NCBI GenBank assembly: GCA_964425075.1 | Contig: CAYRKM010000001.1 | Coordinates: 266,484 to 330,483 of the forward strand | DNA from: an uncultured Gammaproteobacteria bacterium | Lineage (GTDB): Bacteria; Patescibacteriota; Microgenomatia; Levybacterales; GWA1-39-11 | DNA length: 64,000 nucleotides | Direction of reading: 5' to 3' | Shown: piece by piece, positions 3,038 to 59,309 of the stretch | How positions within the stretch are numbered: position 1 is the stretch's first letter | Layout: every line of letters starts with the position of its first letter | Notes under the pieces: model-generated | The model's input: only the letters and a program-made list of their open reading frames with translations | Database searches by the model: none | What the model was told of the DNA's origin: nothing | Translations under genes and position numbers: made by a program

Positions 3038-3662
3038 AATAATTCCGGGAATTTTAGAGGCAGAATGGGATGAGATTGAGAAAAAACTTGAACTCATAAA
3101 ACCGTTTACCAATACTGTTCATATTGACATTATCGACGGAAAATTTACTGACAATCTAACCCTTCTTGACCCCTCACCTTTTCAAAAATATTCTAAAGAC
3201 TTTTTCTTTGAACTTCATATGATGGTTAAGGAACCAGTTAATTATTTAGAGTCTTGGGCAAATGCTGGTTTTAAAAGATTTATTGGACATATTGAAAAAA
3301 TGTCTGATATTAATGCTTTTATAACGGGGGGAAGAAGATATGGAGAGATAGGTCTTGCAATTGATGGACCAACTGATATTGGTATTTTAGATGGAATTAA
3401 CCTGAACGATCTGGATTGTTTGTTGGTAATGACAATAAAAGCAGGAGCATCAGGACAAAAATTTCAACCTGAATTACTTGAAAAAGTAAGAGTTTTAAGG
3501 GGGAAAACTGCTATTCCGATTGAGGTTGATGGGGGAATAAATGACATGACGGTTATTAATGCAAAAGAAAGTGGAGCTACCAGATTTGTTGCAAATAGCT
3601 TTCTTTTTAAAGCCAATGCGCAAGAACAGTACGAAAAATTAGAATCCCTCCTTGAAGAATAG
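3030..3662 (+). CDS. rpe: Ribulose-phosphate 3-epimerase
   Basis: HIDIIDGKF (HxDxMDGxF-like) and MV.EP motifs; size 210 aa. Confidence 0.8.
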   Translation: MSEIIPGILEAEWDEIEKKLELIKPFTNTVHIDIIDGKFTDNLTLLDPSPFQKYSKDFFFELHMMVKEPVNYLESWANAGFKRFIGHIEKMSDINAFITGGRRYGEIGLAIDGPTDIGILDGINLNDLDCLLVMTIKAGASGQKFQPELLEKVRVLRGKTAIPIEVDGGINDMTVINAKESGATRFVANSFLFKANAQEQYEKLESLLEE

Positions 3663-10201: not shown

Positions 10202-10323
10202 ACCCTCTGTATATCGCATTCTAGCAAGCACTTTTCAAGATCAAGATTTTTTTAAACTATTAACAAACAAAGAGCCATAATTTATATATTGCAATTTTCG
10301 TAGTTCGTACACTATACTTAATT

Positions 10324-11064
10324 ATGGGTTATTTCGGGAAAATTGAACTTAAAAATGAAGCTATCGCACTCCACCAAAAAGGCCTTTCCTATAACGAAAT
10401 TCTGAAAACAATTCCTGTTTCCAAAGACACATTAAGTCGGTGGTGCAGAGAAATTGAACTAACAAATGATCAAAAAGCAAGATTAATGACAAATAAAGAG
10501 AACGGCCAGAGAAAGGGCTCGCTTGTAGCAGCTGGTAATAAAAGGAGACAAAGAATAGAAAAAATTAAGAACATAAATATCTTGGCTAGAAAGGACATAG
10601 GTAAAATTTCAAAGAGAGATAATTTCATTTTTGGCCTAGCTCTTTATGCCGGAGAGGGAGGCAAAACCGATGGAAAAGGTACCTTCACCAACTCGAATCC
10701 CTTTTTTATTAAATTTATGTGTAAATGGTTAATGGAATATTGTGATTTAAATGCTAATAATCTAAAGGGGGCACTATGGATTCATGAAGAAAACGATGAA
10801 AAAGAAGCAAAAATATTTTGGTCAAATTTAACTGAAATTCCTATTATAAATTTCCATAAATCATACGTCGTTAAAAACAAAAATGGAGTTTATTATCGGA
10901 AAAATGTTCATCCATTTGGAGTTTTTTCTATACGATTTTACAATAGTGATTTACAAAGGAAAATAATGGGCTGGATTTCAGCTTTCTTAGATGATAAAAT
11001 AACTTCCACTCAAGAAATTGAGTCGATCCGCGATAGCTCAATGGTAGAGCAGGAAACTGTATAA
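10324..11064 (+). CDS. Hypothetical protein with N-terminal HTH and a single degenerate LAGLIDADG-like motif (possible free-standing homing-endonuclease relative)
   Basis: HTH-like LSYNEILKTIPVSKDTLSRWCRE. Motif FIFGLALYAGEGG resembles LAGLIDADG with a terminal acidic residue. Family assignment by eye only. Confidence 0.3.
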   Translation: MGYFGKIELKNEAIALHQKGLSYNEILKTIPVSKDTLSRWCREIELTNDQKARLMTNKENGQRKGSLVAAGNKRRQRIEKIKNINILARKDIGKISKRDNFIFGLALYAGEGGKTDGKGTFTNSNPFFIKFMCKWLMEYCDLNANNLKGALWIHEENDEKEAKIFWSNLTEIPIINFHKSYVVKNKNGVYYRKNVHPFGVFSIRFYNSDLQRKIMGWISAFLDDKITSTQEIESIRDSSMVEQETV

Positions 11065-11204
11065 CAATGCAGCCTCCGAGGGAAACATCGGAGTGAATAA
11101 CTGGGCTAATTCGGGGAAACCCTGAGACAATTGAAGGGCAATCCCGAGCTAAATTCCGCCAAATGGCGAGATAAATGTGTAGAGACTATATACCCAGGAC
11201 CTAA

Positions 11205-11305
11205 TTCGCCAAGATGGTGAAATGGTCATAAGATAGTCCAAGCCTTTTAGTAATAAAAGGGTCCTTGTAATTTCAAGGTTCTAGGTTCGAATCCTAGTCG
11301 CGGAG
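11205..11305 (+). tRNA. tRNA-like element with canonical T-arm and 3' acceptor strand. Full cloverleaf not resolved (possible intron-containing, aberrant or remnant tRNA)
   Basis: CTAGG-TTCGAAT-CCTAG T-arm at 11281-11297, followed by 7-nt acceptor strand TCGCGGA plus discriminator G. Upstream TTCGCCA pairs 6/7. A D-arm-like ATGG-TGAAATGG-TCAT with a GG pair is present. Total length about 101 nt is too long for a standard tRNA and the anticodon arm is non-canonical. Confidence 0.35.
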
Positions 11306-11345
11306 CAAATTGACACCAAGGTCTAAAAAGACTATAAATTAGTTA

Positions 11346-58944: not shown

Positions 58945-58950
58945 AATTTG

Positions 58951-59309
58951 TGGAGATGGGGGGTTTTGAGCCCCCGTCCAAAAATCATCCATAAAAACAT
59001 CTACAAGCGTAGTTCCCTCTAATTCTTGCCATATCTAACCGTTGGAACAAAGAAAATATGACAAAGGCCTAATACGAAACGGGCTGGCCAGCTCCGTTAA
59101 GTTTTTCTAGCAGGTTAATGCCTGTATCTTTGTGCTAGAAGCAAGTTGATACAAACAGGTCTTAGGTATTAAGCAAACGCAAAGTTTGGTTTAAAACCAA
59201 GTCCGCTAAATTGTGATTTAGCATGTATTTTTGAACCTCTTTTACGACTTTGGTTCATTGTCGGCTTGCAGTTTTTAAGGTACAATTCTTGTCGATGCAG
59301 TGCATCCCC
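58951..59309 (-). ncRNA. ssrA: tmRNA (SsrA), standard one-piece form
   Basis: Minus-strand 5' GGGGATGCACTGCATCGACAAG... 3' ...GGACGGGGGCTCAAAACCCCCCATCTCCA. Acceptor stem carries the G3:U70 wobble (AlaRS identity) and discriminator A. T-arm GGGGG/CCCCC. Putative tag ORF GCT AAA TCA ... GCG TTT GCT TAA (AKSQFSGLGFKPNFAFA). Adjacent to smpB. Confidence 0.75.

What the first reader, a model, noticed from the sequence alone, without database searches (positions are those of the whole stretch)
10202..11340. Atypical tRNA-like element paired with an HTH / LAGLIDADG-like ORF downstream of rpoD
The 280-nt non-coding stretch after ORF 10324..11064 ends in a textbook T-arm (CTAGG-TTCGAAT-CCTAG), a 7-nt acceptor 3' strand and a discriminator. 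A 5' acceptor strand 101 nt upstream (TTCGCCA) pairs 6/7, and there is a D-arm-like hairpin with GG. However the anticodon region cannot be folded into a canonical 5-bp/7-nt arm: two consecutive hairpins have 6- or 8-nt loops, and the total length is about 25 nt too long. Possibilities are a tRNA with a short intron, a tRNA-derived integration scar (att site remnant) left by a small mobile insertion carrying the HTH/LAGLIDADG-like gene, or another structured RNA. The neighbouring protein's FIFGLALYAGEGG segment loosely resembles a single LAGLIDADG motif.
Basis: seen in the sequence. Interest (0 to 1): 0.5.

Follow-up and report, generated by a model that had tools for sequence, protein, structure and literature searches.

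The report
Intron-split tRNA-Asn with abutting nuclease gene
The "atypical tRNA" is a normal asparagine tRNA gene split by an already-published type of self-splicing intron, but the gene next to it belongs to a large, undescribed family of nuclease-like genes that sit directly in front of tRNA genes in ultra-small bacteria and look like selfish DNA-cutting elements.

Summary
The true 5' half (11027-11060) lies inside the last 38 nt of ORF 10324-11064. A 207-nt group I intron (11061-11267; Rfam 63 bits, threshold 50) separates it from exon 2 (11268-11305). Splicing gives a canonical tRNA-Asn(GUU) with the intron at position 35/36. This intron class was published for Patescibacteria in 2026, with self-splicing shown in vitro.

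The ORF is the more interesting part. It has an N-terminal HTH, a 45-residue helix and a single LAGLIDADG-fold domain that keeps the catalytic-type Glu. No curated family covers that domain. In 51 Microgenomates species it directly precedes tRNA-Asn, which carries the intron in about 47. Distant relatives (5,878 clusters) abut intronless tRNAs of about 11 other kinds (58 of 77 loci). Decayed tRNA 5' halves upstream of some ORFs end in the anticodon loop, and ORF and intron phylogenies disagree.

My best reading (about 50%) is a free-standing homing-endonuclease family that targets tRNA anticodon loops, here partnered with an ORF-less intron. No cleavage has been demonstrated.

The parts
10289..10318 (+). 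Promoter of the ORF: TTGCAA, 18-nt spacer, TATACT, ending 5 nt before the ATG with no Shine-Dalgarno sequence (inferred leaderless mRNA). The spacer carries the conserved box TAGTTCGTA at 10301-10309.
   Evidence: Consensus scan. The TTGACA-like -35 box, the (T)TAGTTCG(T/A)A box and the -10 box sit at the same distances from the ATG in most of 41 related loci. GTTCG occurs at -30..-21 in 26 of 41 loci.
10324..11064 (+). ORF of 246 aa as read. The conserved protein is about 228-231 aa (to about 11007-11019). The tail ...IRDSSMVEQETV is read-through into tRNA exon 1, and the stop codon TAA (11062-11064) lies in the intron.
   Evidence: Homologues cover 92-93% of the query. dN/dS is 0.05-0.30.
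10324..10464 (+). N-terminal helix-turn-helix domain (aa 1-47), of the transposase/resolvase type.
10465..10599 (+). A single long alpha-helix (aa 48-92, about 45 residues) that links the HTH to the nuclease-like domain.
   Evidence: AlphaFold model, pLDDT 84-94 in this stretch.
10606..11007 (+). Single LAGLIDADG-fold domain (aa 95-228). The motif helix FIFGLALYAGEGGKTD is at 10624-10671, with invariant E111-G112-x-K114-x-D116.
11027..11060 (+). tRNA-Asn(GUU) exon 1: acceptor TCCGCGA, TA, D-arm GCTC-AATGGTA-GAGC, A, anticodon stem GGAAA, then loop CUGU up to U35.
   Evidence: Covaries with exon 2.
11061..11267 (+). Group I intron, 207 nt, with no ORF. P1 is 11057-11062/11067-11072, with the U11060-G11069 wobble at the 5' splice site. 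P2 is 11074-11079/11088-11093. P3 is 11101-11105/11193-11197. P4 is 11110-11115/11143-11148. P7 is 11184-11189/11233-11238. P8 is about 11197-11228. P9 is 11243-11260. The terminal (omega) G is 11267.
   Evidence: Rfam RF00028, 63.3 bits against a gathering score of 50, E 1e-13, full-length model match. ARAGORN i(35,207). Helices were read from the Rfam alignment and checked against the sequence. All 48 homologous introns follow ...CTGT and end in G.
11205..11211 (+). It is part of the intron's P8 region and is not tRNA.
11268..11305 (+). tRNA-Asn exon 2: UAA (positions 36-38), anticodon stem TTTCA, variable loop AGGTT, T-arm CTAGG-TTCGAAT-CCTAG, acceptor TCGCGGA and discriminator G. CCA is not encoded.

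Best explanation
SHOWN. Window 11027-11305 is a single tRNA-Asn(GUU) gene interrupted between U35 and U36 by a 207-nt ORF-less group I intron. The pre-tRNA must be spliced to give a 72-nt tRNA. This is the intron class described for Patescibacteria by Nakagawa et al. 2026, who demonstrated self-splicing in vitro for homologues. ALSO SHOWN. The upstream ORF is a real gene under purifying selection. It encodes an HTH, a long helix and one LAGLIDADG-fold domain that keeps the catalytic-type Glu. It belongs to a very large Patescibacteria family whose members almost always end within a few bases of, or inside, the 5' end of a same-strand tRNA gene. One subfamily goes with tRNA-Asn, and others go with Gln, Met, Phe, Lys, Gly, Arg and further tRNAs. 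INFERRED, about 50%. The protein is a free-standing homodimeric LAGLIDADG homing endonuclease. Its target is the pseudo-palindromic anticodon arm of its cognate tRNA gene, and it cuts in the anticodon loop. Repair copies the cassette (promoter, ORF and a replacement tRNA 5' half) from a donor. If only the 3' side is homologous, the old 5' half is left behind upstream as a scar that ends at the cut site. In the Asn subfamily the intron sits exactly at this site (35/36). The intron would therefore split the target and protect the carrier. The nuclease in turn would drive the spread of an intron that has no endonuclease gene of its own, which is the 'collaborative homing' arrangement. The ORF promoter probably also transcribes the tRNA, and RNase P cleavage would define the 3' end of the mRNA.
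Against: No cleavage activity or target site has been tested. The ORF is intact in about 88% of species at a conserved locus near rpoD. Its divergence tracks RpoD (rho 0.56) even though synonymous sites are saturated. That pattern fits long vertical inheritance under selection better than a purely selfish gene, which should decay once fixed. L014 (the same place as L006) has an intact ORF next to an intronless tRNA-Asn, so the intron is not needed for self-immunity there. The intronless subfamilies (Gln, Met, Arg and others) have no visible protection of their own tRNA gene. Scars are common only in one Asn clade, where they may derive from a single ancestral event, and are sporadic elsewhere. 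Foldseek against the PDB gave no LAGLIDADG hit, and sequence-level support is weak (E about 0.003-0.08). Homing between bacterial chromosomes needs donor and recipient DNA in the same cell, which has not been shown for these organisms.
Confidence: 0.5

Rival explanations
1. The ORF is a domesticated, non-cutting DNA-binding protein, analogous to WhiA (LAGLIDADG plus HTH). It would regulate its own promoter and thereby transcription of the downstream tRNA. Its association with tRNA genes would be regulatory, not selfish.
Against: The Glu at the end of the motif helix, together with Gly and Lys, is invariant across a family that has diverged to 28% identity. From my background knowledge, WhiA has lost these acidic residues. 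It is hard to see why about a dozen different tRNAs would each need a private regulator with a nuclease fold. The regulator model does not explain ORF pseudogenes, tRNA 5'-half scars ending in the anticodon loop, or a GIY-YIG nuclease occupying the same slot.
Confidence: 0.22
2. The ORF is a maturase-like splicing cofactor for the tRNA-Asn group I intron, as some mitochondrial LAGLIDADG proteins are.
For: The ORF co-occurs with the intron in about 47 of 51 species and is probably co-transcribed with it.
Against: Homologous introns self-splice in vitro without protein (PMC13011429). The introns persist where the ORF has decayed, in L055, L056 and L058. Most of the family abuts intronless tRNAs. 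The ORF lies outside the intron.
Confidence: 0.05
3. The ORF is a conserved neighbour with no mechanistic link to the tRNA or intron. The adjacency would reflect genome compaction, and the tRNA would simply end the transcription unit.
For: Patescibacteria genomes are compact. No activity has been shown.
Against: Adjacency to a same-strand tRNA 5' end recurs in at least 12 tRNA species across distant lineages in different gene neighbourhoods. Each subfamily tracks one tRNA identity. Chance synteny does not predict this.
Confidence: 0.08
4. One reading: the region is a tRNA-derived integration scar or a non-tRNA structured RNA, and not a working tRNA gene.
For: A default tRNA predictor finds nothing. 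Real tRNA 5'-half scars do exist in relatives.
Against: The spliced product is a canonical tRNA-Asn with full covariation between the halves. No other tRNA was found in the 64-kb window. The published work reports these as tRNA-Asn genes that standard annotation tools had missed.
Confidence: 0.02

Closest known systems
Group I introns at position 35/36 of tRNA-Asn(GUU) in Patescibacteria (Nakagawa et al., mSystems 2026, PMC13011429; bioRxiv 10.1101/2025.07.03.662931)
   Same: Same tRNA, same insertion site, same size range (173-294 nt here), same U before the 5' splice site and G at the intron's 3' end. ARAGORN makes the same mis-calls (Thr UGU 33/34, Asp) as. The window's intron is a new member of this described class.
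   Different: [quoted passage not shown] Four tRNA-Asn introns there carry HNH genes inside the intron. A term search of its main text found no 'free-standing', 'maturase' or 'Microgenomat', so it does not appear to discuss a conserved nuclease-fold gene abutting exon 1. Here the ORF and intron phylogenies are discordant.
Collaborative homing: a free-standing endonuclease gene next to an ORF-less group I intron (F-CphI with cyanophage psbA; T4 mobE with nrdB and I-TevIII; see PMC6083498, PMC2790892, PMC3984707)
   Same: A nuclease gene lies outside but adjacent to an intron that has no ORF. In the proposed logic the enzyme cuts the intronless allele at or near the insertion site, and the intron protects the carrier.
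   Different: The known cases are phage protein-coding genes with Endo VII-like or HNH enzymes. This one is a bacterial chromosomal tRNA gene with a LAGLIDADG-fold enzyme. Cleavage is untested. Most of the family has no intron partner at all.
Single-domain homodimeric LAGLIDADG homing endonucleases (I-CreI, I-CeuI; I-ShaI from CPR rRNA insertions, PMC11270868)
   Same: One LAGLIDADG-fold domain with the acidic residue kept at the end of the motif helix. Pseudo-palindromic targets suit such homodimers, and a tRNA anticodon arm is a pseudo-palindrome.
   Different: This protein has an extra N-terminal HTH and a 45-residue connecting helix. It is free-standing, not encoded in an intron or insertion. 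It falls below all Pfam LAGLIDADG thresholds. Its motif is LY(W/A)xEGxK, closest to motif 2 of I-DmoI.
WhiA (DUF199), a LAGLIDADG plus HTH transcription factor
   Different: WhiA has two degenerate LAGLIDADG domains followed by a C-terminal HTH and, from my background knowledge, lacks the catalytic acids. This family has an N-terminal HTH, one domain and an invariant Glu.
Phage T4 SegB, a free-standing GIY-YIG homing endonuclease in the tRNA gene cluster (recalled from the literature, not checked here)
   Same: A free-standing homing endonuclease associated with tRNA genes.
   Different: It is a different enzyme family in a phage context, and it has no fixed abutment to a tRNA 5' end.

Membership tests
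tRNA (tRNA-Asn, anticodon GUU) | Cloverleaf with a 7-bp acceptor stem, D-arm, anticodon arm with a 7-nt loop, and T-arm with TTCGAAT | tested here: met
   The spliced sequence is called tRNA-Asn(gtt) by ARAGORN. Covariation across 37 distinct sequences supports all the stems. Pair 27:43 is usually a mismatch.
tRNA (tRNA-Asn, anticodon GUU) | Production of a mature, aminoacylatable tRNA in vivo | not testable with these tools
   Needs RNA-seq or a northern blot. Homologues splice correctly in vitro (PMC13011429).
Group I intron (Rfam RF00028) | Score at or above the curated gathering threshold over the full model | tested here: met
   63.3 bits against 50, model positions 1-253. Across the related loci scanned, the introns scored 50.5-94 bits.
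Group I intron (Rfam RF00028) | [quoted passage not shown] | tested here: met
   U11060 pairs with G11069, and G11267 ends the intron. All 48 relatives have ...CTGT | intron ...G | TAA.
Group I intron (Rfam RF00028) | Self-splicing activity | not testable with these tools
   Shown for two Patescibacteria 35/36 introns, not for this one (PMC13011429).
LAGLIDADG homing endonuclease | The LAGLIDADG alpha/beta fold (motif helix, then beta-hairpin, helix and strands) | tested here: met
LAGLIDADG homing endonuclease | LAGLIDADG motif ending in a conserved acidic residue followed by Gly | tested here: met
   ...LALYAGEGG..., with E111-G112 invariant family-wide and aligned to the LYVAEGD motif of I-DmoI.
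LAGLIDADG homing endonuclease | Match to curated family models (Pfam LAGLIDADG_1/_2/_3, NCBIfam) | tested here: not met
   Nothing but weak HTH hits in Pfam, NCBIfam, PHROGs or PADLOC.
LAGLIDADG homing endonuclease | Site-specific double-strand cleavage of an allele that lacks the element | not testable with these tools
   The evidence is only indirect: scars ending in the anticodon loop.
Collaborative homing system | A free-standing nuclease gene adjacent to an ORF-less group I intron in the same host gene region | tested here: met
   The ORF ends inside exon 1, and the 207-nt intron has no ORF. The same arrangement is found in about 47 species.
Collaborative homing system | The nuclease cuts the intronless allele at or near the insertion site, and the intron disrupts the site | not testable with these tools
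   This is inferred only. L014, with an intact ORF and an intronless tRNA, argues that the intron is not strictly required.
WhiA-type regulator | Two degenerate LAGLIDADG domains plus a C-terminal HTH, with the catalytic acids lost | tested here: not met
   There is one domain, the HTH is N-terminal and the Glu is invariant.
LAGLIDADG maturase | Encoded within, and required by, the intron it helps to splice | tested here: not met
   The ORF lies outside the intron. The introns persist beside decayed ORFs. Most family members abut intronless tRNAs.

The most novel reading that the evidence does not exclude
A family spanning Patescibacteria lineages (thousands of 50%-identity clusters) consists of free-standing, single-domain LAGLIDADG endonucleases with an HTH arm. 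Each subfamily is specific for one tRNA gene and cuts in its anticodon loop. The genes spread as cassettes made of the ORF plus a replacement tRNA 5' half. In tRNA-Asn they have formed a partnership with the 35/36 group I intron. This would explain how 'endonuclease-less' tRNA introns persist and move in these reduced genomes, and why tRNA-Asn stem sequences there are so variable.
Probability: 0.4. Interest if true: 0.8.

Novelty: new variant of a known kind. Interest (0 to 1): 0.62.

Why it matters
The intron is a textbook-type element that was published in 2026, so the window's copy is only a new member. It does illustrate why standard annotation misses tRNA-Asn in these genomes. The neighbouring gene is the useful lead. 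It belongs to a very large uncharacterised protein family whose defining genomic trait, abutting the 5' end of a specific tRNA gene, does not appear in the literature I could search. If these proteins are endonucleases that cut tRNA anticodon loops, three things follow. First, they would supply the missing mobility engine for Patescibacteria tRNA introns, which are currently thought to be largely immobile. Second, they would be a bacterial chromosomal example of collaborative homing. Third, they would provide many natural LAGLIDADG enzymes with different tRNA-gene specificities for meganuclease engineering. The idea can be tested directly with one recombinant protein and a 72-bp substrate.

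Tried and rejected
(1) Host versus ORF incongruence. I first read RpoD identity of 95-97% against ORF identity of 55-67% as evidence that the ORF had been replaced. I withdrew this for two reasons. Synonymous sites in rpoD are saturated in the same pairs (pS 0.67-0.91). The four-taxon RpoD and ORF trees also share the same unrooted split. Only the ORF-versus-intron and ORF-versus-exon discordance survives.
(3) Pfam, NCBIfam, PHROGs and PADLOC do not recognise the C-terminal domain.
(4) The diverse alignment A2 could not be back-translated for a metagenome scan. I used a narrower alignment, A3, so the 80-locus sample is biased towards proteins with LYW[AG]EG[SA]K and towards relatives of P0203.
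(5) tRNA 5'-half scars as a family-wide rule. The systematic search found them in only about 10 of 103 loci, mostly in one Asn clade. They support the model but do not prove it.
(6) A T-loop-like box in the ORF promoters as a shared recognition element. It is enriched in the Asn subfamily, but neighbouring tRNA genes confound the result elsewhere. I kept it only as a side observation.
(7) The maturase idea and the att-scar idea were both rejected (see the rival explanations).
A few intron identities of 5-14% are alignment artefacts and were excluded from the quartet test.
(9) The organism name could not be recovered.

Full report
WHAT IS IN THE WINDOW. They are the T-arm CTAGG-TTCGAAT-CCTAG (11281-11297), the 3' acceptor strand TCGCGGA (11298-11304) and the discriminator G at 11305. 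The proposed 5' strand, TTCGCCA (11205-11211), does pair 6/7, but it is not the partner. The perfect complement, TCCGCGA, lies at 11027-11033. It is followed by TA, a canonical D-arm (GCTC-AATGGTA-GAGC) and GGAAA-CUGU, all inside the last 38 nt of ORF 10324-11064.

Rfam places a full-length group I intron at 11050-11260 (RF00028, 63.3 bits against a gathering score of 50, E 1e-13). Its P1 helix pairs U11060 with G11069, which fixes the 5' splice site after 11060. The intron ends at G11267. Joining 11027-11060 to 11268-11305 gives a 72-nt tRNA-Asn(GUU). ARAGORN finds nothing by default, but with introns allowed it returns tRNA-Asn(gtt) i(35,207).

IS THE SPLIT tRNA REAL? Forty-eight related loci show the same layout: exon 1 ending ...CTGT, an intron of 173-294 nt that always ends in G, and exon 2 starting TAA. 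The introns score 50.5-94 bits in Rfam. Across 37 distinct spliced sequences, all 7 acceptor pairs and 4 of 5 anticodon-stem pairs are paired in 37/37. Each of those pairs joins exon 1 to exon 2, and several positions show three or four pair types. ARAGORN's occasional Thr, Asp, Val or Gln calls are boundary errors of the kind already reported.

WHAT IS ALREADY KNOWN. Nakagawa et al. (mSystems 2026, PMC13011429; bioRxiv 2025) described group I introns at position 35/36 of tRNA-Asn(GUU) and tRNA-Asp in Patescibacteria. They showed precise self-splicing in vitro and noted the Thr(UGU) 33/34 mis-annotation. The RNA part of this finding is therefore a new member of a described class. [quoted passage not shown] A term search of its main text found no "free-standing", "maturase" or "Microgenomat".

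THE ORF. It has 224 close homologues, all from Patescibacteria (Microgenomates). They are typically 228-231 aa and cover 92-93% of the window protein, so the window's C-terminal tail (…IRDSSMVEQETV) is read-through into exon 1. Several homologues carry the same translated-tRNA tail. dN/dS is 0.05-0.30.

THE LINK TO tRNA-Asn. In 51 species-representative genomes (Daviesbacteria, Roizmanbacteria, Gottesmanbacteria, Woesebacteria, Shapirobacteria and others) the ORF directly precedes tRNA-Asn. In most of them the ORF stop lies between 38 nt inside the tRNA and 47 nt before it. In at least 26 loci rpoD lies within 3 kb upstream. All four combinations of states occur:
- ORF intact with the intron present, which is the majority.
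- ORF intact with an intronless tRNA: L014, the same place as L006.
- ORF decayed with the intron present: L055, L056 and L058, plus L033 (frameshift) and L027 (one in-frame stop).
- ORF decayed with an intronless tRNA: L057.

THE LINK IS TO tRNA GENES IN GENERAL, NOT TO THE INTRON. An exhaustive profile search finds 5,878 clusters at 50% identity at E ≤ 0.001, and 437 at E ≤ 1e-30. Most have the same length and keep G..LY(W/A).EG.K…F.NSDP. I examined six contexts of distant members from Parcubacteria. Four abut an intronless tRNA-Arg(TCT), one abuts tRNA-Arg(TCG), and one sits among tRNAs and recombinases.

In 80 metagenome loci, 58 of 77 informative ORFs are followed within 60 nt by a same-strand tRNA: Gln 25, Met 9, Phe 5, Lys 5, Gly 6, Arg 5, and Val, His and Leu once each. 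None of these tRNAs has an intron. Of 98 ORF-tRNA pairs, 44 ORFs stop inside the tRNA, often at the TAG formed by tRNA positions 8-10, and 40 stop 0-20 nt before it. The sample is biased by the search pattern, and I ran no random-gene control.

SIGNS OF MOBILITY AND OF A CUT SITE IN THE ANTICODON LOOP.
- L018: upstream of the full ORF lie the last ~20 codons of another ORF copy plus a complete exon 1. The remnant stops exactly at …CTGT and carries a different anticodon-stem allele.
- L021, L024, L029, L035 and L038 have decayed versions of the same remnant.
- L106 (tRNA-Lys subfamily): a tRNA-Lys 5' half runs directly into the ORF's ATG at the anticodon-loop position, and a complete tRNA-Lys follows the ORF.
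- L057: a GIY-YIG gene (PF01541, E 1.6e-16) starts immediately after position 35 of a degenerate exon 1 and ends in the TAG of a second degenerate copy. An unrelated nuclease therefore uses the same slot.
- Discordant histories: L048-L051 split (48,50|49,51) by ORF and exons but (48,49|50,51) by intron. L001 and L031 share 84% intron identity and 100% exon identity but only 51% ORF identity. Overall, 329 of 1,234 well-resolved quartets disagree.

MODEL AND WHAT IS INFERRED. The steps below are inferred, not shown.
- A single-domain LAGLIDADG enzyme works as a homodimer on pseudo-palindromic sites (established knowledge; I-ShaI from CPR is such an enzyme).
- A tRNA anticodon arm is a 5-bp inverted repeat around a 7-nt loop centred on position 35, so cleavage there would fit both the scars and the intron's 35/36 position.
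- Repair from a donor would copy the ORF plus a new 5' half. If homology is one-sided, the old 5' half is left as a scar.
- The intron would interrupt the target, which is the collaborative-homing arrangement.
- The ORF promoter (TTGCAA-18-TATACT, 5 nt before the ATG, no Shine-Dalgarno sequence) probably also drives the tRNA. No + strand terminator lies between the ORF and the tRNA.

WHAT ARGUES AGAINST THE MODEL.
- No enzymatic activity has been shown.
- The ORF is intact in about 88% of species, and its divergence tracks RpoD (rho 0.56) although synonymous sites are saturated. That suggests long vertical maintenance under selection.
- L014 tolerates an intact ORF beside an intronless tRNA.
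- The intronless subfamilies have no visible self-protection.
- The Asn scars may stem from few events.
A domesticated WhiA-like regulator is the main rival at about 0.2. The invariant catalytic-type Glu, the pseudogenes, the scars and the GIY-YIG occupant fit the regulator model poorly.

VERDICT. The RNA element is ordinary and already described. The ORF's family-wide abutment to tRNA genes appears unreported in the searched literature and is worth experimental follow-up.

Noticed in passing
window 10301-10309; related loci at about -30 and about -60 from the ORF start: The spacer of the ORF promoter carries a conserved box, (T)TAGTTCG(T/A)A, which resembles the DNA encoding the tRNA T-loop (GGTTCGAAT). 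Some loci also have its reverse complement near -60. The cognate T-loop 8-mer (one mismatch allowed) occurs at 4.4 per kb upstream against 0.3 per kb in the ORF body. It may be an operator for the HTH, and the 45-residue helix (about 67 A) matches the roughly 20 bp between the T-loop and the anticodon. This is speculative.
   Followed up: partly
L057 3280-3699: Beside an intronless tRNA-Asn and a gutted LAGLIDADG-type ORF, an 82-aa GIY-YIG gene (3318-3566) is flanked by two identical 38-nt degenerate exon-1 copies (3280-3317 and 3556-3593). In these copies the D-arm is replaced by a GC-rich hairpin (TCCGCCAGCTGGCGGAC).
   Followed up: partly
L106 800-970: Two tandem 68-nt repeats lie upstream of the tRNA-Lys 5'-half remnant. 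Each starts with the first 15 nt of tRNA-Lys, and each can form a GCCATTAGC...GCTAATGGC stem.
   Followed up: no
L008 about 1380-1440 and L019 about 260-300 (upstream of the ORFs): A short GC-rich palindrome (CCTGCCTGCCGGYAGGCAGG) is inserted in the exon-1 remnant of L008, and a similar one lies upstream in L019. It may be a small repeat element of these genomes.
   Followed up: no
window 11062-11064: The stop codon of the window's ORF lies inside the intron, and its last 11 sense codons are tRNA exon 1. RNase P cleavage at the tRNA 5' end would leave this mRNA without a stop codon. In 44 of 98 family loci the ORF likewise stops inside the tRNA, often at the TAG formed by tRNA positions 8-10.
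   Followed up: partly
window 58948-59309 (- strand): A tmRNA gene (Rfam 123 bits) with tag peptide AKSQFSGLGFKPNFAFA. It is the only other structured RNA that Rfam or ARAGORN found in the 64-kb window. No other tRNA gene was detected.
   Followed up: no
tRNA-Asn exons of L001-L058: There are 18 different anticodon-stem sequences and 12 different acceptor stems among 46 species. Pair 27:43 is almost always a mismatch, usually G-A. I did not compare this diversity with other tRNAs of the same genomes.
   Followed up: partly
proteins P0178 (531 aa), P0208 (504 aa) and P0266 (335 aa): Some family members are about twice the normal length and match the profile in two stretches. These may be tandem fusions or mis-called adjacent copies.
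   Followed up: no
L143 3779-4078: A tRNA-Tyr(GTA) with a 213-nt intron called by ARAGORN lies 1.5 kb downstream of a family ORF that has no adjacent tRNA.
   Followed up: no
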